Positions 911-11,138 are shown, numbered from the stretch's first letter. The stretch is DNA of 11,138 bases from Fretibacterium sp. (GCA_017476945.1 JAFUYV010000061.1:1-11138); one strand, 5' to 3'. Notes: generated from the sequence alone by a model not told the origin. Numbers and translations: made by a program.

Positions 911-1159
911 CTATGGCCCCAGCCAGACGACAAGGACAATCAAGACGTCATCCTTTATCTGGCAGACAAGGCGGTAATCCCCAACGCGATACTTCCAAAG
1001 GCCGGAAAGCGAACCACGGAGCGGCGCACCTTTTGTGCGGGGATTGTCGGATTCACGCAGACGCCGGACATACTGCCTGATACGTTCTCTTGCGGTTCTG
1101 TCCAACCTCAGAAGCGCGTCTTGCGCCTTCTCCTGAAACTCTACTTTCCATCGCGTCAA
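911..1159 (-). CDS. Type II toxin, RelE/ParE (RelE_StbE) family; the C-terminus appears truncated by a +1 frameshift
   Basis: ORF 911..1231 (-) contains (L)[81 protein letters not shown]. This aligns along its whole length with E. coli RelE (YFLDFDERALKEWRKL...KLRGMPDCYKIKLRSSGYRLVYQVIDEKVVVFVISVGKRERSEVY). The RelE fold begins at WKVEF, so I place the start at TTG 1159, although no clear RBS precedes it. The ORF stops after ...VVWLGP. The next frame continues with [10 protein letters not shown], which is the canonical RelE C-terminal tail. Confidence 0.6.
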
Positions 1160-1247
1160 GAGCGTCTGGCGTCCGGCGGCTGGCCCTGCTCTCGAGGGCA
1201 AGGCGATCCGGAATGTCCGGCGCAACCTCAAAGGTCATCTGCGGCAT
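1053..1247 (-). CDS. Putative RHH-type antitoxin (RelB/ParD-like). Its 3' half overlaps the toxin ORF, so the extent is uncertain.
   Basis: A strong RBS AGGAGG sits 7 nt upstream of ATG (complement of 1245-1247). That ATG overlaps the SPFH gene stop as ATGA, which suggests translational coupling. The N-terminus [35 protein letters not shown] fits a ribbon-helix-helix pattern (beta-strand TFEV, then a helix PDIPDRLALESRASRR). The remaining sequence, [27 protein letters not shown], overlaps the toxin frame by 107 nt and looks non-native. Confidence 0.35.
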   Translation of the reverse strand: MPQMTFEVAPDIPDRLALESRASRRTPDALDAMESRVSGEGARRASEVGQNRKRTYQAVCPASA

Positions 1248-2050
1248 CACTGCCCCTCCTTCGTGCCAAACGCCTTGTCGACAAACGGCTTGAGCAGGTC
1301 CATTGGGACGGGGAAGAACGTCGTGGTGTTGCGGTCGCCGGAGATCTCGCGGATGGTCTGGAGGTAGCGGAGCTGGAGCGTGATGGGGGAGACCTCCATT
1401 TGACGCGCGGCCTCGGAGAGCTTGGTGGCGGCCTGGAGCTCGCCCTCGGCGGAGATGATCTTGGCGCGGCGCTCACGTTCGGCCTCGGCCTGGCGGGCCA
1501 TGGCGCGCTTCATCCCCTCCGGCAGCTCCAGCTCCTTCACCTCCACGGCGCTGACCTTGATGCCCCACGGGTCGGTGCGCTCGTCGATAATCTTCTGGAG
1601 CTCCTGGTTGATCTTCTCGCGGGAGGACAGCACCTCGTCCAGCTCCACGGAGCCGACCACGGAGCGCAGCGTCGTCTGGGCAAGCTGGCTGGTCGCGACG
1701 ACATAGTTCTCCACCTCGACGACGGACTTGGAGGGCTCCAGCACTCGGAAGTACACGACGGCGTTGACCTTGATGGCCACGTTGTCCTTGGTGATGACCT
1801 CCTGAACGGGCACGTCCAGCGTCAGGATGCGCAGGTCCACCGTCACGGCCCGGTCAATGATGGGGACGATGAACACAATCCCCGGCCCACGGCTGCCCAC
1901 CAGCCGCCCCAGGCGGAAGAGGACCAGCCGCCGGTACTCCGGCACGATGCGCACGGCCATGGAAAGCACAAACAGCAGGATGAGCCCCGCCACGAACAGG
2001 CTGCCGATCTGGGAGAAGACGGACCCGATGTCGCTGATATCGATAATCAT
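1247..2050 (-). CDS. SPFH domain / band 7 family membrane protein (stomatin/prohibitin-like, QmcA-like)
   Basis: The translation [90 protein letters not shown]...[45 protein letters not shown]... contains an N-terminal TM helix followed by the canonical SPFH core. It is collinear with E. coli QmcA/YbbK. I place the start at ATG (complement of 2048-2050), with AGGGGGAG 8 nt upstream. The ORF-track start at 2110 lacks an RBS and would add 20 non-conserved residues. The stop is TGA at 1247-1249. Confidence 0.9.
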
Positions 2051-2245: not shown

Positions 2246-2297
2246 AGCCCCGCGGCGCGAGCGCTCGGATAAGCCCCGCGGCGTGAGCGATTAGATA
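2246..2297. repeat. Tandem direct repeat of 26 bp, two copies: AGCCCCGCGGCGCGAGCGCTCGGATA / AGCCCCGCGGCGTGAGCGATTAGATA
   Basis: This is seen directly in the sequence. 22 of 26 positions are identical. The repeat lies in the intergenic region between gene A and the SPFH gene and abuts the palindrome at 2299-2332. The GATA end of each unit also begins the palindrome arm GATATC. Confidence 0.55.
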
Positions 2298-2298
2298 A

Positions 2299-2332
2299 GA
2301 TATCCCGCCGCCTTGGAGGGCAGCGGGATATC
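2299..2332 (-). terminator. Putative intrinsic terminator or palindromic site downstream of gene A: GATATCCCGC-N14-GCGGGATATC
   Basis: A perfect 10-bp inverted repeat with a 14-nt loop lies about 55 nt downstream of the gene A stop (2388) on the minus strand. A moderately T-rich TTATCTAAT follows it. The U-tract is imperfect, so it may instead be a protein-binding palindrome. Confidence 0.35.
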
Positions 2333-2387
2333 CCATTTCAGGAGGTTTTATAACAGATTAGATCGCACTTGTAATGAATGTGCCCGT

Positions 2388-5366
2388 TTACCATCGCTTC
2401 AACAAGGCCGCGCCGCCCAGCAGGGCCAGCCCAAGAAGGCCGCCGCCCAGCCCCGCGTCGCAGCCGCCGCTGCCATTGTTGCTGGTTGGGCTTTTCACTG
2501 ACGTCTCCTCGACGGTGATGTACTGATTGTACGTCGTCCCACCCTCAAGGTAGGCCGCCACGTTCAGCTCCGACGTTCCGTCGTACTCCTTTCCGTCAAC
2601 GACGTTCCCCTCGGTGTCCAGGAGCACCGCCGGCTCGCCCGTGTCGCTGGCGCCCGTGTCGGTGTCGGTTGCCGCTGTTTTGACGTCGGCCTCATCCAGC
2701 TTGCGGACATAGACGTACGGCTTGTCCCCCTTGTTCAAGCCCTTTGGCTTGCCAAGGCCGATGACGTGGACGCCCTCGTTCACCGCGGTGAACGGCACAA
2801 AGACAACCGCCAGTTTCTCCTTGGCGTTGTTGGTGTTCTTGAGCCCCTTATCGTCCTCCAGGTTCTTCTTGATATCCTGGTAGACGTTTTCAAGCTTCTC
2901 GGTCTCCGCCTCAAAGGGAGGGATGTCCTGGGAGCTCGCGAAGATCACCGGGGCGTCCTTCTGCTCGCTCGTCAGATTCAACCCCACGTAGGCCGGGGCG
3001 CTCTTGAAGTCCTCCGAAGTGGCGTACTTTGTCAACTTTGGAGCGTCGGCCACCGTGGTGACCGTCACGGAGTCGTCATCGCCCAGGTCCAGCGTCGTGC
3101 CCTCCTCCACGGGGTCCTCCGCGGGGGCGTAGACCGTGATGTCCACAGCGTAGAAGTAGGACGGATCCGACGGGTCGTTCACCGCCGCAAGGCGATAGGT
3201 GTTCGAGCCCGACGAGGGGACCGCGAGGCTGGCCGCGGCATTGCCGTCCGAGTCAAAGACCTTCGCCATGTTGGCGGGCGTCACGGCCCACGTTACAGTG
3301 GCGCCTCCCGTCGTCCCGGTGAAGTTGATGGCCGTGGCGGCCTCCTGCGCGCTGACGTCAGTATAAGCCAGGGAGCTCAGCGTCTTGCCGCCCAGGTCCG
3401 CCGAGGCCGCGGGGGCCACCGTGACCTCAAAGGCCTTGGTGTTTGTGCCCTGGGTCAGGGTGATGGTGATGGGCGTGAAAGCCGAGGACGGGATGTACTC
3501 GAAGGCGCCGATGCTGGGGGCGTTGGCGTTGCGCGCCCTGCCAAGCTGGTCCACCGACGGAGCCCCGCTTCCGGCGCCGCCCCTGATGAGGCTGGCGTCA
3601 GCGTTGGTGAGCTTGAAGTACGTCTGCTCGACGTCGTTCACCGTCTCGCTGGCGGACGCGCGGCCGCTCCAGCTCAGGTCCGTCACGCAGTCCGTGCCGG
3701 TGAGGGTGGTCGCCCCGGCTCCGTAAGCGCAGTTCGTCAGAGTCAGCGAGCCGCCATTGTAGGTGTTGACGCAGGGGGTTTTCTCGTTCCAGAGGATCGT
3801 GTTGACCAGGTTCAGCGTGCCGGTGGTGCTGTAGATCTCCGCTCCACCCTCAGCGGCCGTGGCCGTGTTCGACACAAAGGTGCAGTTCACGACCTTCGCC
3901 GTATCCTTGGTGACGTTGTAGCCGCAGACCCCGCCGCCATAGGTGGCCGTGTTGTCCGTGAAGGTGCTGTTCGTCACCGTGGAGGTCAGCTTAGAGTCCC
4001 CGTCGTCACGGAGCATCAGGCCGCCGCCCAGGGTCTCCACGCCGGTCACCGCGGCCGCCTTGTTGCCCGTGAAGGTGCAGTTCTCCACCATCGAGGTCAG
4101 CTTGTCGGCATAGGCACTGTCGAACATCCCCGCGCCGTAGGTCTGCGCGTTGGGGTTTGCGCCGTCCGGGGCTGTGTTCCTGATCTCATTGCCCTCAAAG
4201 CGGCAGTTCGTCACCGTGGAGGTCACGGGGCCGCCCACGGCCTCGTTGCAGATGCCCGCGCCGTTCGTGTCCGCCGTGTTGCCCTTGAACGTGCAGTTCT
4301 CCACCGTCACGGTGAGATCGTTGCCCTTTGTTAACTCAGCGTTCGTCTGGCTGTTGGCGGTGCCGTTCCAAATTCCGCCGCCGGACCCGCCGAAGGCCTT
4401 CGTTCCGTCCTTGGCCGCAACCGCCTTGTTGCCCGTGAACGTGCAGTCCTTGACGGTCACCTTCAGGACGCAGGCCTCCCGGCACCAATTATAGAGGCCG
4501 CCGCCTATGCAGGCCTCGTTGGAGTCGAACGTGCAGCCCGTCACCGTCGTGGTCAGCTTGCCGCCGGAGTGGATGGCGAAGTTGGCCATGCCGCCGCCGT
4601 CGTACCAGTTGCCTTTGTTCCCATCCGCGGTCTTGTTTCCCTTGAACGTGCAGTTCGTCACCGTGATGTCGATCTCGCCGTTCTGCTCCTCTGCGAGAAT
4701 CTTGGTGTCAATGGTGCCGTTGTACATCCCGCCGCCGTTGAAGGCCGTGTTGTCCTCGAAGGTACAGTTCGTCACCGTGGGCTTGAGGACGGCGCTGGTC
4801 GCCGCGCTGTGGGTGTACATCCCGCCGCCGTAGCCGTAGGCGCTGTTGCCCTTGAACGTGCAGTCCGTCACCGCGGGGGTGTAGGCGCCGCTCTGGGTCG
4901 CCGCGATCGCCAGGCCGCCGCCGTTGGCCCACTCCATGTGGCCGTCCGAGACGCTGACGGTGTCCGAGGTGTACTGATTGTTCTCAAAGATACAGCCCGT
5001 GATCGTCGGGCTGGCGTCCTCCACGTAGAGCCCCGCGCCTCCGTAGCCGTTGGCCTTGCTGTTGGCCGTGGAGTTCACGACCCCGCCCGTGATGGTGAGG
5101 TTCTTGATGGTGGCGTCGGCCGTGCACTTCAGGATACGGACGCTGCCGTTGCCCGTCAGCTTGTGGCCGTTGCCGTCAAGGGTGAGCGCACGCGTCACGT
5201 TCAGCGTCTCCGTCACGGTGATGTCCGCCGTCAGGGTGACGGTGCTGTCCGTGCCGGCAAGGGCCGTCTTGAGCGCGTCAAGCGTCCCCACCTCCGCCGC
5301 CCAGGCCGGCGGGGCCAGGAGCGCGCACAGCGCCAGGAGAAAAACCGCAATCCGCTTCGTCTTCAC
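2388..5366 (-). CDS. Large secreted cell-surface protein (992 aa). It has a Sec signal peptide, an N-terminal right-handed parallel beta-helix with polymorphic-membrane-protein (Pmp)-type repeats, Ig-like domains, and a C-terminal Cys-containing sorting signal with a TM helix.
   Basis: The start is GTG 5366, with an AAGGAGG RBS 9 nt upstream. The N-terminus is MKTKRIAVFLLALCALLAPPAWA|AEV. The protein has more than 12 repeats of the form TVTNCTF(K/E/T)GN...GGG(M/L)Y, which match the FxxN and GG[AG][ILMV] Pmp motifs. The beta-helix ends in ...DQLGRARNANAPSIGAFEY. The C-terminus is ...SNNGSGGCDAGLGGGLLGLALLGGAALLKRW*. Codon usage is high-GC throughout. Confidence 0.9.
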   Translation of the reverse strand: MKTKRIAVFLLALCALLAPPAWAAEVGTLDALKTALAGTDSTVTLTADITVTETLNVTRALTLDGNGHKLTGNGSVRILKCTADATIKNLTITGGVVNSTANSKANGYGGAGLYVEDASPTITGCIFENNQYTSDTVSVSDGHMEWANGGGLAIAATQSGAYTPAVTDCTFKGNSAYGYGGGMYTHSAATSAVLKPTVTNCTFEDNTAFNGGGMYNGTIDTKILAEEQNGEIDITVTNCTFKGNKTADGNKGNWYDGGGMANFAIHSGGKLTTTVTGCTFDSNEACIGGGLYNWCREACVLKVTVKDCTFTGNKAVAAKDGTKAFGGSGGGIWNGTANSQTNAELTKGNDLTVTVENCTFKGNTADTNGAGICNEAVGGPVTSTVTNCRFEGNEIRNTAPDGANPNAQTYGAGMFDSAYADKLTSMVENCTFTGNKAAAVTGVETLGGGLMLRDDGDSKLTSTVTNSTFTDNTATYGGGVCGYNVTKDTAKVVNCTFVSNTATAAEGGAEIYSTTGTLNLVNTILWNEKTPCVNTYNGGSLTLTNCAYGAGATTLTGTDCVTDLSWSGRASASETVNDVEQTYFKLTNADASLIRGGAGSGAPSVDQLGRARNANAPSIGAFEYIPSSAFTPITITLTQGTNTKAFEVTVAPAASADLGGKTLSSLAYTDVSAQEAATAINFTGTTGGATVTWAVTPANMAKVFDSDGNAAASLAVPSSGSNTYRLAAVNDPSDPSYFYAVDITVYAPAEDPVEEGTTLDLGDDDSVTVTTVADAPKLTKYATSEDFKSAPAYVGLNLTSEQKDAPVIFASSQDIPPFEAETEKLENVYQDIKKNLEDDKGLKNTNNAKEKLAVVFVPFTAVNEGVHVIGLGKPKGLNKGDKPYVYVRKLDEADVKTAATDTDTGASDTGEPAVLLDTEGNVVDGKEYDGTSELNVAAYLEGGTTYNQYITVEETSVKSPTSNNGSGGCDAGLGGGLLGLALLGGAALLKRW
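5298..5366 (-). other. Sec signal peptide of gene A (23 aa, predicted AWA|AE cleavage site)
   Basis: MKTKR is followed by a hydrophobic core IAVFLLALCALLA and then an AxA site (PPAWA). Confidence 0.55.
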
Positions 5367-5401: not shown

Positions 5402-5459
5402 GCCCCGAAGGGCGAAAAGACCTTCAGGGGAACCCCCCGCGGCCTGAGGGCCGCGGGGG
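5402..5459 (-). terminator. Hairpins in the B-A intergenic region. One is an 11-bp GC stem (CCCCCGCGGCC-tgag-GGCCGCGGGGG). A small GCCC-cgaa-GGGC hairpin follows it, and then comes T-rich sequence. Together they form a probable partial terminator or attenuator.
   Basis: The large hairpin begins 15 nt after the gene B stop (5474-5476). On the minus strand the small tetraloop hairpin is followed by AAGTTTCTTTCATATTTAT, immediately before the gene A RBS. Confidence 0.4.
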
Positions 5460-5473
5460 AAAACGCCCATTCG

Positions 5474-8400
5474 TCAGCCCCGCTTCCTCGCCAGGACGGG
5501 GAGCAACAGCAGCGCCAGGGTCGGGAGCCCGGCCGCGCACCCGCCGCCATCGTTGTTGGAGGAGACATCGCTGTTCTCGCCGCCGTCCCTGTCCTCGTCC
5601 GCGGGCGCGCCCTGCGTGAGGGAGACGTCCATCAGGACCTCCGCGCCGTCCTCCTCAAAGCCCGTCCGATATTGATAGGTGACCGCAGCCGGGGCCGAGG
5701 CAAAGCTGGCAACGCCCGTCTCGACGTCATAGATGACCGCGATCTCCCCGCCCGCGCTGTTGTAGCCCACGACACCCGTCACGTTGTCAAAGTCCGACGC
5801 GGAGAGCCGCGCCAGGCCGGCGATCCGCACCGTGCCCGCTCCCTCGGCCGCAACGACGGAGGCGCGGGTGTAAGCGCCGATGCGCACCTGGAAGACGTCT
5901 CCCTGCCTCTGGAAAGACAGGTCGGACCGCTTCTGCCCGCCGCAGTCCAGCCGCGTCAGGTAGGGGAAGAGGCTGCGGGGGACAAAAAGCGCGGCAAGGC
6001 CGTTGCCCTGGCAGAACAGCTCCTGAAGCTGGCGGCAGTCGTCCAGGCCCTTCAGGCTTGTCAGCTTGTTCGTGGAGCACTTCAGGCTCGTCAGCGACTT
6101 GCACTCCCTCACGTTCAGCTCCCCCAGCTTGTTGCTGCTGACGTCCAGCTCCGTCAGGTTTGTGCAGCCGCTCACGTCCAGGGACTCCAGCGCGCCGCAG
6201 TCGTTGGCCTTCAGCTCCGTCAGGGACTCGCAGTCCGCGGCCTTCAGCTCCGTCAGTGCGCCGCAGTCGCTCACGTCCAGCGTCTTGAGGTTCTCGCTGC
6301 CGCTGGCGTCCACCTTCTCCAGCACGGGGCTGCCCTTGGCGTCGACGGTCTCCAGGGCCTCGCATCCGCTCACGTTCAGGGACTTGAGGGACTCATTGCC
6401 GCTGGCGTTCACCGCCGTCAGATTCGGGCAGTCCCTCACGTTCAGCTCCGTCAGCGAGGGCAGCTCGGAGCCCGACAGGTCCACCTCGGTGATGTTCTCA
6501 TTTGCGGAGACCTCCAGCTTCGTGACCTCCTTCGCCAGCGCCTCACCCAGGTTGGAGACGAACTCGCTCACGCTGCCCGCCGACGCGTCGACGGCCAGGG
6601 AGAGGCCGCCGCCCGCCTCGCCGCCTGAGGGGGACTTGATGGCAAACGTGACCGTCTTCTTCCCCACCCCGCCCCCGCCGGTGGCCGTGACCACCAACGG
6701 ATAGGTCCCCGCCTCCGCCGGCGTGCCGGTGATGGTGTGGGTCACCGGGTCGAAGGTCAGGCCGCCGGGCAGCCCGCTCACGCTCCAGGCGTAGGACAGG
6801 CCGGCGGGACTGGCGGCCAGGGACATCTGCCCGGAGTACGCCTCCCCCGCCGTGGCGGAGGACGGGTTCAGGCTCGCCTGCGTGACGGAGACCTCCGCTG
6901 GGTTGACGGTGAGGGACAGAACCGCCTCGTTGGAACTCTCCCCTTCCACCGCGGCCCAGGCGTAGATGAGGAAGGTGCGGTTCGCCGTGGGCCTGCCGGA
7001 GATGGAGAACACGTCACCCGAGATCTTGCAGGTCATGCCCTCCGGGACGCCGCCCAGGACCCATTCGTACGTCATGCCCTCCGGCGCGACGGAGAGAGCC
7101 TGAGTGGCCGAGTACTCCTGGCCCACCGTCGCGTCGGGCAGGACAACCTGCGCGGGCGAGACCGTTATATCCTTAACCTCCAGCTCCAGATCTCTGGAGT
7201 CCACGCAGAGGACGCCGCCGTTGGTGAGCTGGGCCTCCACGTGAACGGTGTAGATCCCAGCGTAAAGGGGTTTGCCGCCGAGGACCGTCGTGCTCGTCTT
7301 CCCGCTCAGCGTCGTTTCACTGAGCGACAACAGGCCCTTTTCCTTGGAGATGAGTCTGTCGCTGCCCCTCACCAGCCATTTCATACTGCGCCCTGAGTCG
7401 CCGGCCACGTCCGCCTCCAGCAACGTGGAATACTCAAGGCCCCTAATGGCCGGAGGAAGGGACGTCGTCGTGATGGTGACAGCTGGGTTGACGGTGAGGG
7501 TAAACGTCCTGGTGTCCGAGAAGGACACGCCGTCCTTGCTGGCCGTGGCCCTGACGGTGATGAGGTAGGTCCCGACGGGGGTCGGGTGGCCGCTGATCTG
7601 ACCTAAATACCTATCCCCATCCAAATTGCCGATCGTCAGCCCCTCGGGTAAACCCTCGGCTTCCCAGCGCACATCCAAACCGGATGGGACCGTAGAAACC
7701 CACAGCGGATCGTTATAAGAGCTGCCCTCCTGGGTCGATTGGTCCCCCATCGAACTGGTGATTGTAACGCTGTACTTCCCGACGCTCACCTCGCCCCTGA
7801 GCGTTACCATCATGGCCTCGCCGCCCGCCAAGGCGGCTTCCGCCGGGGCCTTCGTGTCGTAGCGATAGGTGATGGATGTTGGCGCCGTGCCGTCCGCGAA
7901 CACAGCGACGCCCGTCGTGCCGTCGTAGGAGACGGCGGGGGTGCTTCCGTTCCACAGCACCTGGTCAACCCGGTCCAAAGCGCCCAGCGAGGACTCGACA
8001 AAGCTGCTGAGGTGGACCACACTGTCCACACCGGTGGTGGAGACGGTCAAACCGTTGGGGCGCGCCTGGCCGGAATAATCCACCGTGGTCAGCGCCGTGT
8101 TCTCCTCCAGCGCCAGGGCCGCGAGCTGGTTGTCCGAGCAGTCCAGCGTCTCCAGGCTCACGCAGTCGCTCAGGTCCAGCTTTGGCAGCGCGTTGGCGGA
8201 GCAATCCAAGGATGTCAGGTCGGCACACCCGCTGAGGTTCAAAACGGTCAATTTATTGCCAGAGCAATCCAAGCGCTCCAGGTTCACGCACGCGCTCACG
8301 TCCAGACGAGCCAGCTCATTGCCGGAGCAGTCCAGCTTCCTCAGGCCCTCGCACGTACTGAGGTCCAGCTCGACGAGCCCGTTGCCGGAGCAGTCCAGCT

Positions 8401-11138
8401 CCGTCAGGCCCTCGCAGCCGTCCAGCTTCAGCGACGTCAGCGCATTGCCGGAGCAGTCCAGCACCTCCAGCTTTTCACAGCCGCTGGCGTCCAGCTCCGT
8501 CAGGTTTTCGCAGCCGGTGATCCTCAGCTCCTTCAGGTTCGGAAAGGCCGCCAGCCCGGAGAGGCTGGTCAGGTTCCCGCCGCCGCGGAACGAGAGGCTC
8601 TCGATTTTGTCCAGCTCATACCGCCCCGCGTTGTCGATGAGCTGCTGGAGGTTCGAGGCGGAGGAGTTCTCGACGTCCAGCGCCGTCCGCGCCGTGATGT
8701 CGATGTCCAGCCTGGCTGTGGTCTCCCCGCCGGCAGCCTTCGCCGTGGCCGCCGCCACGAAATTCCCCGACGCCTGCGGCGTGCCGGTGATGGTCAGCGC
8801 ATTGGCCGAAAAGCTCCCGCTCAGGCCCGCGGGAAGCCCGCTGACGCTCCATTGATAATTGGCCTCTGGACTTATCGTAAAGGTGGCGGCAGCCGTATAC
8901 TCCTTCCCCGCTGTCCCCGATGGCAGCGTCACGGATGCGGGGGTGATTTTGATGTCAGAACTGAGGAGGATGATGGTGTGAGTCAGCGTGGCTGTGCCCG
9001 TTCCGCCGGGGCTGGCGGCCGTGACGCTGAGGTCGAAACCGCCGAGCTTGTTGGGTGTGCCGGAGGCGCTGAGCGTTCCATCCTTGATGGAGTAGTTCAG
9101 GCCGTTGTCCGGTGCGCTTGTGATGCTCCAGGTATAGTTCAAGCCCGCAGGGTCCACGGTGAGGGCGGTGGACTCCGAGAAGAAATTGCCCATCGAACCG
9201 TTCTTCAGGGACGCCGTGATTTTGACGTCAGCAGGGTTAACGATAACCCTCAGATCCGCCGTGGAGGACAGGCCGCCATCGCCGGCCGGGGCCGTCACCT
9301 TGACCGTGAGGGTGTAATCGTCCGCCGACGTGGGCGTGCCGCTGAGGATGAGCTCGCCCGGAGTGGTTGTGAACTCCGCGCTCATACCGGGGATGTCCGC
9401 CTTCTCAACTGCCCAGGTATAATCGGCGTTTGAAAAGTTGTTGACGCTGAGGGAGGAGACGGAAAAGACGGCCTTCTCCGCCGTGTAGTTCGTCCCCGCT
9501 GTCAGCGTCATGCTGGCCGGAGCGGCGACTGAGGGCGCGATGATGAGCGTCAGCTCCTTTGACGTGCTGTTCTGGCTGCCCCCCTCCCTGGCTGTGGCCG
9601 TCGCCGTGAGCGTGTAGATCCCGCTGCCTTCTGGTGTGCCGGAGACAGCACCGGTGGCCGGGTCGAAGGTCAGTCCTGCGGGAAGGCCGCTGAGCTCACG
9701 GACAAGGGCGCCGCCCGCAGCGTCCATGTCCACGGTGGCGGAATACGCCTCCCCGGCCTGGCCGTTGGGGAGGGAGGCCGTCAAAATTTTGACGCCCAGG
9801 GGTTCCACGGCGCCGATGGTCGGGCTTTCGACGTTCCGGGAATAGCCAAGCTGATCCAAACCTACAATTTCTTCATCTACAATGTAATTTTCCGTACTGT
9901 TCTTGTAAAATTCAAATTCTTTTATGAACTCATTGAAATTCGCCACGCTCTCGCCTGTCAGGGGTTTAGAACCCTCCGTCTCCACCCCGACCACCTTGAA
10001 AACAGTGTGAGGGACCCCGTTCACCGCATATTCTTTCTCTTCAAGGCGACCGCTCGATATTGTCACGCACCCATCATCCAAAACAACGTTGCCAGAAGAA
10101 TTTACGATGTGCTCCACCGTATTAACCGCATTTGTCATAAAGGCACAATGTCTCGCCCGAACATAGTCTTTATTCTGTGCGTTCACACGTACATAAAACG
10201 GCTTCTCAGCAAACGCCCCCGTATTCCAGACATAAGAATTAATAAAAGGATGCAAATAGCCTGTCTCGTTAGAGTTCGAAACCCCGTTAGCGGAAATATC
10301 GGCTCCATATTGGGCGCGGTTCTCAACAAAGGAACATTGAACCACTTTCGTGTTCTTGTTATATTTGTCGAAAAATATTCCCCCTCCACCAGTTGTTTCT
10401 TTTGTGCCTGTCGCCTCATTTTGCGTGAAGGTACAATTGATGAACGCCGGCCCCCCATCCGCGTACACTCCGCCTCCACTTGTTCCAGCCCTGTTCCCCT
10501 TAAAGGTACACTGAAAAATTCCGAAGCTTCCCTGGCCAGAGTGTATTCCACCACCCTGTGACCCCGCCTCATTCTCAATAAAGGCGCAATTGACAATATC
10601 AGGGTAAGTGCCCGTGCCATTAATAGCCAGGCCTCCACCCGGTTTTTCGCTCTTATTTTCTCTAAAAATGCAGTCTCTTACTTCCGTACTGGCAAGCACA
10701 AAGTAAAGGAAAACGCCCCCACCCCGACTTTGGGTTCCCTTCGTAGCGTTTTTTTCAAAAATGCAACTTATCAACCTGAGATTGTTTCCCTTCGCCGCAT
10801 ACAATCCACCACCGCCTGCGGCGGCCAAGCCAATATTAGTTACATTATTGGAGAATTTACAGTTTATTACCTCCGGGGCACCGACGCCCCCGACATAAAG
10901 CCCGCCGCCATAAGTATTCGATGTTGCCGTAAGCTCATTATCTTTAAAAACGCACTGTCTCACCGCCGGGCTGGCGTCAATGATGTACATTCCTCCGCCA
11001 TAGCTGTTTTTATTGCCGCTACCGCCTACTGTCCCTGTTCCTCCCGTGATGGTAAAGCCATCAATGCGGGTGTTCTCCGGCGTCGCATCAGGGTCTGTGC
11101 AGGTGACGACGGAGAACGCGCCACCGTTTGCGTCCAAG
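5474..11138 (-). CDS. Giant cell-surface adhesin-like protein (more than 1887 aa; the N-terminus lies beyond the window). It has a Pmp-like beta-helix module, multiple He_PIG-type Ig-like domains, two 21-aa leucine-rich-repeat blocks, and a C-terminal Cys-containing sorting signal.
   Basis: The frame is open from the window edge down to TGA 5474-5476. The beta-helix repeats (for example NCKFSNN, GGGGLY, CIFEKN, CTFKGNRAGTSGGGVY) occupy about 9850-11138. He_PIG-like domains follow, for example SLPNGQAGEAYSATVDMDAAGGALVRELSGLPAGLTFDPATGAVSGTPEGSGIYTLTATA. The first LRR block, (LTELDASGCEKLEVLDCSGNA)xN, is at about 8090-8660, and the second is at about 5998-6530. The C-terminus is ...SSNNDGGGCAAGLPTLALLLLPVLARKRG*. 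Confidence 0.9.
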   Translation of the reverse strand, partial: LDANGGAFSVVTCTDPDATPENTRIDGFTITGGTGTVGGSGNKNSYGGGMYIIDASPAVRQCVFKDNELTATSNTYGGGLYVGGVGAPEVINCKFSNNVTNIGLAAAGGGGLYAAKGNNLRLISCIFEKNATKGTQSRGGGVFLYFVLASTEVRDCIFRENKSEKPGGGLAINGTGTYPDIVNCAFIENEAGSQGGGIHSGQGSFGIFQCTFKGNRAGTSGGGVYADGGPAFINCTFTQNEATGTKETTGGGGIFFDKYNKNTKVVQCSFVENRAQYGADISANGVSNSNETGYLHPFINSYVWNTGAFAEKPFYVRVNAQNKDYVRARHCAFMTNAVNTVEHIVNSSGNVVLDDGCVTISSGRLEEKEYAVNGVPHTVFKVVGVETEGSKPLTGESVANFNEFIKEFEFYKNSTENYIVDEEIVGLDQLGYSRNVESPTIGAVEPLGVKILTASLPNGQAGEAYSATVDMDAAGGALVRELSGLPAGLTFDPATGAVSGTPEGSGIYTLTATATAREGGSQNSTSKELTLIIAPSVAAPASMTLTAGTNYTAEKAVFSVSSLSVNNFSNADYTWAVEKADIPGMSAEFTTTPGELILSGTPTSADDYTLTVKVTAPAGDGGLSSTADLRVIVNPADVKITASLKNGSMGNFFSESTALTVDPAGLNYTWSITSAPDNGLNYSIKDGTLSASGTPNKLGGFDLSVTAASPGGTGTATLTHTIILLSSDIKITPASVTLPSGTAGKEYTAAATFTISPEANYQWSVSGLPAGLSGSFSANALTITGTPQASGNFVAAATAKAAGGETTARLDIDITARTALDVENSSASNLQQLIDNAGRYELDKIESLSFRGGGNLTSLSGLAAFPNLKELRITGCENLTELDASGCEKLEVLDCSGNALTSLKLDGCEGLTELDCSGNGLVELDLSTCEGLRKLDCSGNELARLDVSACVNLERLDCSGNKLTVLNLSGCADLTSLDCSANALPKLDLSDCVSLETLDCSDNQLAALALEENTALTTVDYSGQARPNGLTVSTTGVDSVVHLSSFVESSLGALDRVDQVLWNGSTPAVSYDGTTGVAVFADGTAPTSITYRYDTKAPAEAALAGGEAMMVTLRGEVSVGKYSVTITSSMGDQSTQEGSSYNDPLWVSTVPSGLDVRWEAEGLPEGLTIGNLDGDRYLGQISGHPTPVGTYLITVRATASKDGVSFSDTRTFTLTVNPAVTITTTSLPPAIRGLEYSTLLEADVAGDSGRSMKWLVRGSDRLISKEKGLLSLSETTLSGKTSTTVLGGKPLYAGIYTVHVEAQLTNGGVLCVDSRDLELEVKDITVSPAQVVLPDATVGQEYSATQALSVAPEGMTYEWVLGGVPEGMTCKISGDVFSISGRPTANRTFLIYAWAAVEGESSNEAVLSLTVNPAEVSVTQASLNPSSATAGEAYSGQMSLAASPAGLSYAWSVSGLPGGLTFDPVTHTITGTPAEAGTYPLVVTATGGGGVGKKTVTFAIKSPSGGEAGGGLSLAVDASAGSVSEFVSNLGEALAKEVTKLEVSANENITEVDLSGSELPSLTELNVRDCPNLTAVNASGNESLKSLNVSGCEALETVDAKGSPVLEKVDASGSENLKTLDVSDCGALTELKAADCESLTELKANDCGALESLDVSGCTNLTELDVSSNKLGELNVRECKSLTSLKCSTNKLTSLKGLDDCRQLQELFCQGNGLAALFVPRSLFPYLTRLDCGGQKRSDLSFQRQGDVFQVRIGAYTRASVVAAEGAGTVRIAGLARLSASDFDNVTGVVGYNSAGGEIAVIYDVETGVASFASAPAAVTYQYRTGFEEDGAEVLMDVSLTQGAPADEDRDGGENSDVSSNNDGGGCAAGLPTLALLLLPVLARKRG
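8130..8462. repeat. Intragenic tandem repeats with a 63-bp period (at least 6 units) encoding the 21-aa LRR units of gene B
   Basis: The 18-mer TTGCCGGAGCAGTCCAGC, or close variants of it, recurs at 8130, 8193, 8256, 8319, 8382 and 8445, exactly 63 nt apart. Confidence 0.7.

What the first reader, a model, noticed from the sequence alone, without database searches (positions are those of the whole stretch)
2388..2480. Both giant surface proteins end in the same unusual Cys-containing tripartite sorting signal (N(N/D)GxGGCxAG, then a TM helix, then an (R/K)KR(W/G) tail)
**What the sequence shows.** Gene A ends ...TSNNGSGGCDAGLGGGLLGLALLGGAALLKRW. Gene B (5477-5566) ends ...SSNNDGGGCAAGLPTLALLLLPVLARKRG. 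Neither has LPXTG, a PEP motif, an SLH domain or a beta-barrel.

**Established knowledge.** A signature motif followed by a hydrophobic helix and a basic cluster is the hallmark of substrates processed by a dedicated membrane sorting enzyme, such as sortase, exosortase/archaeosortase or rhombosortase.

**Inference.** The invariant Cys in a GGC(D/A)AG motif resembles the Cys-type 'Synerg-CTERM' class reported in Synergistetes and paired with an XrtG exosortase. That comparison is from memory and unverified. The implication is a cognate sortase-like enzyme elsewhere in the genome, and possibly lipid or thioether modification at the Cys.
Basis: partly seen in the sequence, partly recalled or inferred. 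Interest (0 to 1): 0.75.

Follow-up and report, generated by a model that had tools for sequence, protein, structure and literature searches.

The report
Synerg-CTERM sorting tails on two adhesins
Two neighbouring giant surface proteins of a Fretibacterium (Synergistota) genome end in the already described Cys-containing "Synerg-CTERM" sorting signal, so this is an ordinary though unannotated example of a known system, and its predicted processing enzyme is a CAAX-protease-like myxosortase (MrtS), not an exosortase.

Summary
Gene A (window 2388-5366, minus strand, 992 aa) and Gene B (5474 to beyond 11137, minus strand, more than 1887 aa) both end in a Ser/Asn/Gly-rich motif that stops at one Cys. 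A short hydrophobic segment and a basic cluster follow, then the stop codon.

Gene B's tail passes the curated Synerg-CTERM model TIGR04564 when scanned alone (26.7-28.4 bits, cutoff 22.5). Gene A's Gly-rich, Pro-less tail is not reported by that model. It scores 30.3 bits on an independent profile of eight related tails, against 10.9 for the best of 500 shuffles.

NCBI assigns Gene A to a Fretibacterium sp. MAG, a genus already listed as carrying Synerg-CTERM. The same beta-helix passenger in other phyla ends in IPTL-CTERM or PEP-CTERM-like tags.

The XrtG exosortase pairing was wrong. Haft (2023) predicts MrtS, a CPBP/Rce1-type intramembrane protease, plus a dedicated type II secretion system. 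Only the sister enzyme MrtX has been tested experimentally (mBio 2025).

I could not test whether this genome encodes MrtS or that secretion system. Verdict: new members of a known kind, low interest, with a small annotation-sensitivity point.

The parts
2388..5366 (-). Gene A: a 992-aa secreted beta-helix repeat protein and putative adhesin (MBR1671699.1, 'hypothetical protein', Fretibacterium sp. MAG)
   Evidence: ORF and translation. Pfam Pectate_lyase_5 adhesive domain at 25.7 bits, weak Chlam_PMP, and weak choice-of-anchor Q. Exact match to the NCBI/ENA protein.
5298..5366 (-). Gene A N-terminal Sec-type signal peptide MKTKRIAVFLLALCALLAPPAWA, with predicted cleavage before AEV
   Evidence: Read directly from the sequence: basic n-region, hydrophobic core, and A-W-A at -3 to -1. 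No signal-peptide predictor was run, so this is an inference.
2460..2483 (-). Gene A signature motif S-N-N-G-S-G-G-C (residues 962-969). The invariant Cys969 lies at 2460-2462
   Evidence: GGCDAG is identical to the core of tails named SYNERG-CTERM by NCBI and JGI.
2400..2459 (-). Gene A hydrophobic segment DAGLGGGLLGLALLGGAALL (residues 970-989). It is Gly-rich, has no Pro, and is about 4 residues longer than in Gene B
   Evidence: Composition bias of 16.3 bits in hmmsearch.
2388..2399 (-). Gene A basic C-terminal cluster K-R-W plus the stop codon
5474..11137 (-). Gene B: more than 1887 aa, with the N-terminus beyond the window. It has beta-helix repeats, He_PIG Ig-like domains and two leucine-rich-repeat blocks, and is a putative adhesin
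   Evidence: Pfam LRR_4 1e-36, He_PIG 2e-28, LRR_EndoS. NCBIfam internalin-like LRR hits.
5537..5563 (-). Gene B signature motif S-S-N-N-D-G-G-G-C. The invariant Cys lies at 5537-5539
   Evidence: TIGR04564 alignment covers residues 1864-1886.
5489..5536 (-). Gene B hydrophobic segment AAGLPTLALLLLPVLA, Leu-rich with two Pro
   Evidence: It matches Haft's description of a Pro within a Leu-rich TM segment.
5474..5488 (-). Gene B basic cluster R-K-R-G plus the stop codon
5433..5460 (-). 12-bp G+C-rich hairpin just after the Gene B stop codon; a likely terminator or transcript-stabilising element between the two genes
   Evidence: strand folding gave -40.2 kcal/mol and z = -3.8, with 0 of 200 shuffles as stable. 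A terminator-like site was found at 5439-5425.
2295..2336 (-). 18-bp hairpin downstream of the Gene A stop codon; a likely terminator
   Evidence: strand folding z = -5.7, with 0 of 200 shuffles as stable.

Best explanation
Both tails are Synerg-CTERM-class C-terminal protein-sorting signals on two large secreted adhesin-like proteins of a Fretibacterium (Synergistota, diderm) bacterium.

Proposed pathway:
1. The N-terminal signal peptide sends the protein through Sec. This is read from the sequence for Gene A only.
2. The C-terminal hydrophobic segment and basic cluster hold the precursor in the inner membrane, with the passenger in the periplasm. This is inferred from the positive-inside rule.
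3. The invariant Cys at the periplasmic edge of the helix is modified, probably by a lipid, by an enzyme not yet identified. This is inferred by analogy only.
4. MrtS, a CPBP/Rce1-type glutamic intramembrane endopeptidase, cuts just after the Cys and removes the helix and basic tail. This is a comparative-genomics prediction for Synerg-CTERM. It has been shown experimentally only for the sister pair MYXO-CTERM and MrtX.
5. A lineage-specific type II secretion system moves the protein across the outer membrane, where the modified Cys keeps it on the cell surface. This is also predicted.

Gene A's Gly-rich, Pro-less tail is a divergent member of the same class that the short curated HMM fails to report.
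For: - Gene B's tail alone scores 26.7 and 28.4 bits on TIGR04564, above the 22.5 cutoff (E = 4e-6 and 1e-6).
- Gene A's tail scores 30.3 bits on an independent profile of 8 related tails built without Genes A and B. The best of 500 shuffles reaches 10.9 bits and the best unrelated C-terminus 5.5 bits.
- A profile of the tails retrieves proteins named 'SYNERG-CTERM sorting domain-containing protein [Synergistaceae bacterium]' by NCBI and 'Synergist-CTERM protein sorting domain' by JGI. They share Gene A's GGCDAG core.
- Gene A is deposited under Fretibacterium sp.. Fretibacterium fastidiosum is one of the named Synerg-CTERM species.
- P0002, a third protein with the tail, has a nearby accession in the same submission.
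- Natural control: among 80 loci encoding the same beta-helix passenger, GGGGC-type tails occur only in the Synergistaceae loci L025, L063 and L072. Homologues in other phyla end in IPTL-CTERM (26.9 and 29.4 bits) or PEP-CTERM-like tags.
- Pro-less P0016 passes TIGR04564 at 29.0 bits. Of the other obvious Synergistaceae tails, three score only 12-13 bits and one is not reported at all. Gene A's miss therefore reflects model sensitivity.
- Mechanism: Haft 2023 and Guo, Haft and Wall 2025, PMC11980579.
Against: - Gene A's tail gets no TIGR04564 hit even at E <= 10. It also lacks the Pro that Haft describes as invariant in the TM segment.
- Gene B in full length scores 20.3 bits, just under the 22.5 cutoff.
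- The independent profile includes P0002, a close relative of Gene A, which raises Gene A's score somewhat.
- No MrtS, CPBP or T2SS gene was seen in the window or in about 100 kb of Synergistaceae loci, and the rest of the MAG could not be read.
- No experiment exists for any Synerg-CTERM protein or for MrtS. Lipidation of the Cys is unproven even in Myxococcus.
Confidence: 0.82

Rival explanations
1. The tails are plain C-terminal transmembrane anchors. The proteins stay as unprocessed bitopic inner-membrane proteins, and the Cys-containing motif has no sorting role.
For: A hydrophobic stretch followed by basic residues is enough on its own for a stop-transfer anchor. There is no direct evidence of cleavage for any Synerg-CTERM protein. 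Gene A's tail fails the curated model.
Against: The Gly/Ser-rich motif ending in an invariant Cys directly before the helix is kept across unrelated passenger architectures: beta-helix, LRR/Ig and short proteins. It is lineage-restricted, and the same passenger carries other recognised processed tags in other phyla. Adhesin-like LRR, Ig and beta-helix domains make little sense trapped in the periplasm of a diderm. In the sister system the Cys is required for cleavage by MrtX.
Confidence: 0.07
2. One reading: the tails are substrates of an exosortase (XrtG) or rhombosortase-type enzyme, meaning a PEP-CTERM-like or GlyGly-CTERM-like system.
For: The same general three-part architecture is present. 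Gene A's tail gives trivial sub-threshold hits to PEP_CTERM (8.6 bits against a cutoff of 16) and to PFE-CTERM and PVV-CTERM.
Against: There is no PEP motif. No GlyGly-CTERM hit appears even at E <= 10. The only significant curated match is Synerg-CTERM. The literature ties that domain to a CPBP protease and never to an exosortase. From my own recollection, unverified here, XrtG is a Gram-positive exosortase family.
Confidence: 0.03
3. Gene A's Gly-rich, Pro-less tail is a functionally distinct subclass. It might be recognised less efficiently or by a different protease, or kept as a GxxxG-type membrane anchor. Only Gene B would then be a true MrtS substrate.
For: Gene A lacks the Pro described as invariant. 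It has a longer Gly-rich segment (GLGGGLLGLALLGGAALL, with small-xxx-small spacing) and no TIGR04564 hit.
Against: Its signature motif GSGGCDAG is identical to that of named Synerg-CTERM tails. Pro-less P0016 passes the curated model. P0002, a close relative of Gene A with the same pre-tail domain, has a Pro-containing tail, so the two forms interchange within one protein family. The curated model also misses other evident tails.
Confidence: 0.08

Closest known systems
Synerg-CTERM sorting domain (NCBIfam/TIGRFAMs TIGR04564) with predicted sorting enzyme MrtS (NF040589) and the Synerg-CTERM-associated T2SS (GspC/L/M/N: NF041616-NF041619). Source: Haft 2023, bioRxiv 10.1101/2023.06.07.544157
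   Same: A Ser/Gly-rich motif ends abruptly in one invariant Cys, with no spacer before a short hydrophobic segment, followed by a basic cluster at the extreme C-terminus. The organism is in Synergistota (Fretibacterium). Several tail-bearing proteins occur per genome, on large surface-protein passengers. Gene B has the Pro in a Leu-rich helix and passes the model.
   Different: Gene A has no Pro, has a longer Gly-rich helix and is not reported by the model. Gene B in full length falls 2 bits under the cutoff. Neither protein is annotated as Synerg-CTERM in the public record (Gene A is 'hypothetical protein'). The presence of MrtS and the T2SS in this genome was not verified.
MYXO-CTERM / myxosortase MrtX of Myxococcus xanthus (TIGR03901). 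Source: Guo, Haft and Wall, mBio 2025, PMC11980579
   Same: A three-part tail with an invariant Cys. Cleavage is by a CPBP-family intramembrane protease and depends on the Cys. Surface delivery is by a T2SS. This is the only experimentally tested relative and the source of the mechanistic model.
   Different: MYXO-CTERM is longer, often has a second Cys (GCGC), has no Pro or charged residue in the helix, and is restricted to Myxococcota. Neither window tail hits TIGR03901. There are only weak matches to the tail ends of two MYXO-CTERM-anchored protein families (E = 0.11 and 3.5).
GlyGly-CTERM / rhombosortase and PEP-CTERM / exosortase systems
   Same: The same overall logic: a signature motif, a helix and a basic cluster, removed by a dedicated intramembrane enzyme. 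For GlyGly-CTERM, surface display is T2SS-dependent.
   Different: The signature motifs and the enzyme superfamilies (rhomboid, exosortase) are different. No significant model hit was found for either tail.
Eukaryotic/archaeal CAAX processing by Rce1/MmRce1, and bacterial lipoprotein processing by Lgt/LspA
   Same: A Cys is lipid-modified first, and an intramembrane protease then cuts next to it. This is the analogy used for the proposed order of steps.
   Different: CAAX is a 4-residue cytosolic C-terminus, and the lipobox is N-terminal. Here the Cys lies on the outer face, before a C-terminal helix (inverted topology). The modifying enzyme is unknown.

Membership tests
Synerg-CTERM (TIGR04564) | Score at or above the curated cutoff (22.5 bits) on model TIGR04564 | tested here: inconclusive
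   Gene B tail alone scores 26.7 and 28.4 bits, which is met. Gene B in full length scores 20.3 bits, just under. Gene A gives no hit at E <= 10, which is not met. The model also under-scores evident tails in other Synergistaceae: 12.3, 13.4 and 13.4 bits, plus one with no hit.
Synerg-CTERM (TIGR04564) | Three-part architecture at the extreme C-terminus: a Ser/Gly-rich cluster ending in a single invariant Cys, no spacer, a hydrophobic segment, then a basic cluster | tested here: met
   Both tails have it. Gene A scores 30.3 bits and Gene B 26.0 bits on an independent 8-tail profile. Shuffles reach at most 10.9 bits.
Synerg-CTERM (TIGR04564) | Pro within a Leu-rich stretch of the TM segment (described as invariant in the seed logo) | tested here: inconclusive
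   Gene B has two Pro (LPTLALLLLPVLA), which is met. Gene A has none, which is not met. The feature is not strictly required by the model: Pro-less P0016 scores 29.0 bits.
Synerg-CTERM (TIGR04564) | Taxonomic restriction to Synergistales/Synergistota | tested here: met
   NCBI names Gene A as a Fretibacterium sp. MAG protein, MBR1671699.1. Fretibacterium is listed among the Synerg-CTERM genera. Among the 80 passenger-homologue loci, Cys tails occur only in Synergistaceae.
Synerg-CTERM (TIGR04564) | N-terminal signal peptide on the same protein (Sec export) | tested here: inconclusive
   Gene A has a clear n/h/c signal peptide with AWA|AE on inspection. No predictor was available. Gene B's N-terminus lies outside the window.
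Synerg-CTERM (TIGR04564) | Same genome encodes MrtS (NF040589, PF02517 CPBP protease) and the divergent T2SS (NF041616-NF041619) | not testable with these tools
   The window and contig L001 hold only AlaRS, RuvX, Band_7, a ParE toxin and a Na/Ala symporter. No CPBP-motif ORF was found in the Synergistaceae loci I held. The source genome is not among the representative genomes scanned. The rest of the MAG is not readable here.
Synerg-CTERM (TIGR04564) | Cleavage after the Cys, and modification of the Cys | not testable with these tools
   This needs an experiment. None has been published for Synerg-CTERM.
   No PEP motif is present. Gene A's tail scores 8.6 bits against a cutoff of 16, and Gene B's tail gives no hit.
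GlyGly-CTERM / rhombosortase | Hit to the GlyGly-CTERM model | tested here: not met
   No hit was reported for either tail at E <= 10.
MYXO-CTERM / myxosortase MrtX, MrtC | Hit to TIGR03901, and a Myxococcota host | tested here: not met
   Neither tail hits TIGR03901. The host is Synergistota.
LPXTG / sortase | LPXTG-like motif before the helix | tested here: not met
   No such motif is present in the sequence. There is no TIGR01167 hit.

The most novel reading that the evidence does not exclude
Gene A's Pro-less, Gly-zipper-like tail (GLGGGLLGLALLGGAALL) could be a distinct Fretibacterium subclass of the Cys-type signal. It might be handled differently from the canonical Pro-containing form, for example by slower or alternative cleavage, or by being kept as a helix-helix interacting anchor. 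That would give one cell two fates for proteins carrying the same GGC motif.
Probability: 0.08. Interest if true: 0.4.

Novelty: new member of a known kind. Interest (0 to 1): 0.2.

Why it matters
There are three modest points:

1. **Annotation.** Two very large adhesin-like proteins of a ruminant-gut Fretibacterium are filed as hypothetical or left unannotated. They can be re-labelled as predicted surface-anchored Synerg-CTERM substrates.
2. **Model sensitivity.** TIGR04564 misses Gly-rich or otherwise divergent tails, here and in other Synergistaceae. Counts of Synerg-CTERM substrates per genome are therefore probably underestimates, and a lineage-specific model is needed. Haft already noted the same problem for MYXO-CTERM.
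3. **Enzyme.** The finding corrects the expected enzyme. Anyone following it up should look for an MrtS-type CPBP protease and its T2SS, not an exosortase.

Fretibacterium includes periodontitis-associated species, so its surface adhesins have some applied interest. None of this changes how this class of sorting signal is understood.

Tried and rejected
- **Tail alignments for the genome scan.** I gave 10-sequence and 5-sequence tail alignments to the genome-collection scanner, to count tails per genome and map their taxonomy. Gly, Ala and Leu codons are too degenerate.
- **The one genome scan.** I spent it on the full-length beta-helix family alignment. It was diluted by beta-helix proteins from many phyla, did not recover the source genome, and returned only four Synergistaceae loci. 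It served as a natural control but not as a genome-wide count.
- **Looking for MrtS or the T2SS by neighbourhood.** I read the contigs carrying Gene A, P0121 and P0122. P0002 is not on record. A motif scan (EExxxR ... FxxxH ... HxxxN/D in hydrophobic ORFs) over all Synergistaceae loci found nothing. I had no MrtS seed sequence. The paper's supplementary tables are not held, so I could not run a homology search for MrtS.
- **Gene B's last 196 aa.** The word-indexed protein database returned no relatives at E <= 0.01, not even Gene B itself. This gave no information on conservation among Gene B's orthologues.
- **Alternative sorting systems.** I considered LPXTG, PEP-CTERM, GlyGly-CTERM, MYXO-CTERM and JDVT-CTERM membership and rejected them on the model scores.
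- **A possible lipobox.** I considered reading LALC in Gene A's signal peptide as a lipobox. I rejected it because Leu at position -1 is non-canonical and an AWA|A signal-peptidase I site follows. This was by inspection only.
Full report
The window carries two tandem genes on the minus strand. Gene A (2388-5366) encodes 992 aa ending ...TSNNGSGGCDAGLGGGLLGLALLGGAALLKRW*. Gene B (5474 to beyond 11137) is open to the window edge, has more than 1887 codons, and ends ...SSNNDGGGCAAGLPTLALLLLPVLARKRG*.

Each tail has three parts:
- an Asn/Ser/Gly cluster that ends in a single Cys;
- 20 (Gene A) or 16 (Gene B) mostly hydrophobic residues;
- a basic cluster, followed directly by the stop codon.

Gene A begins with a typical Sec signal peptide, MKTKRIAVFLLALCALLAPPAWA|AE (by inspection). 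Gene B's N-terminus lies outside the window.

The passengers look like adhesins. Gene A has a pectate-lyase-like adhesive domain and PMP-type beta-helix repeats. Gene B has beta-helix repeats, He_PIG Ig-like domains and two leucine-rich-repeat blocks. No LPXTG, PEP-CTERM, SLH or autotransporter barrel was detected.

**2. Test against the curated models.**
- Gene B's tail scanned alone matches NCBIfam TIGR04564 (Synerg-CTERM) at 26.7 bits (E = 4.4e-6) and 28.4 bits, above the 22.5-bit cutoff.
- In the full-length protein the same hit scores 20.3 bits, just under the cutoff.
- Gene A's tail gives no TIGR04564 hit even at E <= 10. It gives only trivial matches to PEP-CTERM, PFE-CTERM and PVV-CTERM, at 7-9 bits.
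- No GlyGly-CTERM, MYXO-CTERM or LPXTG model matched either tail.

**3. Gene A's tail belongs to the same class.** Four lines of evidence support this.
- Among Gene A's homologues, three proteins with the same beta-helix architecture end in the same kind of tail. They are P0002 (Fretibacterium sp., 51% identical), P0006 and P0016. On TIGR04564 they score 22.2, 19.2 and 29.0 bits. P0016 has no Pro, so the Pro is not what excludes Gene A.
- A profile built from five tails retrieved five more proteins from the 5.8-billion-protein database. NCBI names one 'SYNERG-CTERM sorting domain-containing protein [Synergistaceae bacterium]', and JGI names another 'Synergist-CTERM protein sorting domain-containing protein'. 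All carry GGGCDAGFG, the same core as Gene A's GGCDAGLG.
- I built an HMM from eight tails, leaving out Genes A and B, and ran it with HMMER's filters off. Gene A's tail scored 30.3 bits and Gene B's 26.0. The best of 500 composition-matched shuffles of each reached 10.9 and 7.4 bits. The best of 111 unrelated C-termini reached 5.5 bits.
- HMMER assigned Gene A a 16.3-bit composition-bias term. I infer that the bias filter is why the curated scan is silent.

One caveat: the profile contains P0002, a close relative of Gene A.

**4. Taxonomy and copy number.** Gene A is identical to MBR1671699.1, 'MAG: hypothetical protein IJ702_02105 [Fretibacterium sp.]'. It lies on a 14.6-kb ENA contig that matches the window apart from one 1-nt indel. 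P0002 is MBR1672594.1, also Fretibacterium sp. The close accession numbers suggest the same MAG submission, which would give that genome at least three tail-bearing proteins (this is an inference). Fretibacterium fastidiosum is one of the species listed as carrying Synerg-CTERM, and the domain is so far restricted to Synergistales.

**5. A natural control.** It returned 80 loci from many phyla. I scored the C-termini of all 3,433 ORFs of 100 codons or more in the loci I held. Cys-type tails (GGGGC, then a Pro-containing Leu-rich segment, then a basic cluster) appeared only in Synergistaceae loci. L072 alone has three within 21 kb.

Homologous passengers in other phyla end in different signals. 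I found IPTL-CTERM (26.9 and 29.4 bits) and, in a Planctomycetota MAG, PEP-CTERM-like tails. The tail is therefore a lineage-specific module added to a widespread passenger, as expected of a sorting signal.

The same call shows that TIGR04564 under-scores evident Synergistaceae tails: 30.2, 12.3, 13.4 and 13.4 bits, and one with no hit at all. Gene A's miss is typical of this short model.

**6. Mechanism and what is known.** Synerg-CTERM is described in one publication (Haft 2023, bioRxiv 10.1101/2023.06.07.544157). That paper describes:
- a Ser/Gly-rich cluster ending abruptly in an invariant Cys;
- no spacer before the TM segment;
- a Pro within a Leu-rich TM segment.

Partial phylogenetic profiling over seven Synergistales genomes gave top scores to nine genes of a divergent type II secretion cassette. 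It also gave a top score to one glutamic-type CPBP/Rce1-like intramembrane protease, WP_005661921. That protein is named MrtS and is modelled by NF040589.

The proposed order of events comes by analogy with Rce1/MmRce1: modification of the Cys side chain, cleavage after the Cys, then T2SS-dependent surface display. For the sister system this model now has experimental support. MrtX is required for C-terminal cleavage and surface anchoring of TraA, the cleavage needs the conserved cysteines, and it also occurs in E. coli when MrtX is co-expressed. The lipidation step and its enzyme remain hypothetical, with Lgt as a candidate (Guo, Haft and Wall 2025, PMC11980579). Nothing has been tested for Synerg-CTERM or MrtS.

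The general idea of a dedicated membrane sorting enzyme elsewhere in the genome, with a possible lipid on the Cys, agrees with the current model.

**7. What I could not test.** I could not determine whether this MAG encodes MrtS and the associated T2SS.
- The window and its contig carry only housekeeping neighbours: AlaRS, RuvX, an SPFH/Band 7 protein, a ParE-family toxin and a Na/Ala symporter.
- Other tail-bearing loci showed no CPBP gene. Haft notes that these enzymes are usually not encoded next to their substrates.
- I had no MrtS sequence to use as a search query.
- The tail itself was too degenerate for the collection scanner.

**8. Gene organisation.** A 12-bp G+C-rich hairpin follows Gene B's stop codon (5433-5460, z = -3.8). 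An AAGGAGG ribosome-binding site then precedes Gene A's GTG start. An 18-bp hairpin follows Gene A (2295-2336, z = -5.7). The two genes are probably separate transcription units (this is an inference).

**9. Verdict.** Both tails are Synerg-CTERM-class sorting signals on two adhesin-like proteins of a Fretibacterium. Gene B is canonical. Gene A is a divergent Gly-rich, Pro-less member that the curated HMM misses.

These are new members of a known kind. The remaining points of interest are small:
- a sensitivity gap in TIGR04564;
- the corrected enzyme assignment;
- a small chance (about 0.08) that Pro-less tails are a functionally distinct subclass.

Noticed in passing
window 9900-11100: G+C falls to 0.43-0.54, against 0.60-0.68 across the rest of the window. 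This region is the N-terminal beta-helix part of Gene B. The ORF stays open throughout, and the independent ENA contig (L001) ends inside it, at window 10173. It could be a mosaic or recently recombined 5' part of the gene, or an assembly join.
   Followed up: no
window 911-1231 (-): A ParE/RelE-family toxin ORF (Pfam ParE_toxin, 37.1 bits) lies between the Band 7 gene and alaS. It was not called as a gene on the ENA contig. A 65-aa ORF at 1053-1250 (-) overlaps it in another frame, has no Pfam hit, and may or may not be an antitoxin.
   Followed up: partly
L002 10001-10204, and the same gene in L003-L005: A 67-aa ORF (P0121) consists of little more than a linker and a Synerg-CTERM-like tail (…SPTSNKDSGGGCDAGFGGMALLALLGLIATKKH). 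It overlaps the end of a ParE toxin gene in several assemblies. It may be the remnant of a disrupted surface-protein gene, or a mini-substrate.
   Followed up: no
window about 2050-2110, compared with L001 about 8120: The window and the public ENA contig are identical over 10.17 kb except for a single 1-nt indel, near the start of the Band 7 gene. This changes the apparent start: 287 aa in the window ORF against 267 aa in the called gene.
   Followed up: partly
L072 (Synergistaceae MAG CAZJHH010000012.1), ORF ends at 8859(-), 12094(+), 14202(-): Three large ORFs within 21 kb all end in a GGGGGC tail with a Pro-rich helix and a basic cluster, but only one passes TIGR04564 (30.2 bits, against 12.3 and 13.4). 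Substrate genes cluster here, and the curated model under-counts them.
   Followed up: partly
window 5474-11137 (-), Gene B residues about 800-1130 and about 1530-1860: Gene B contains two similar modules. Each is a leucine-rich-repeat block followed by a domain of about 100 aa (…GQ.R….VSYD/IYDVETGVA.FA…TYQY/TYRY…). The last 196 aa found no relatives in the word-indexed protein database.
   Followed up: partly
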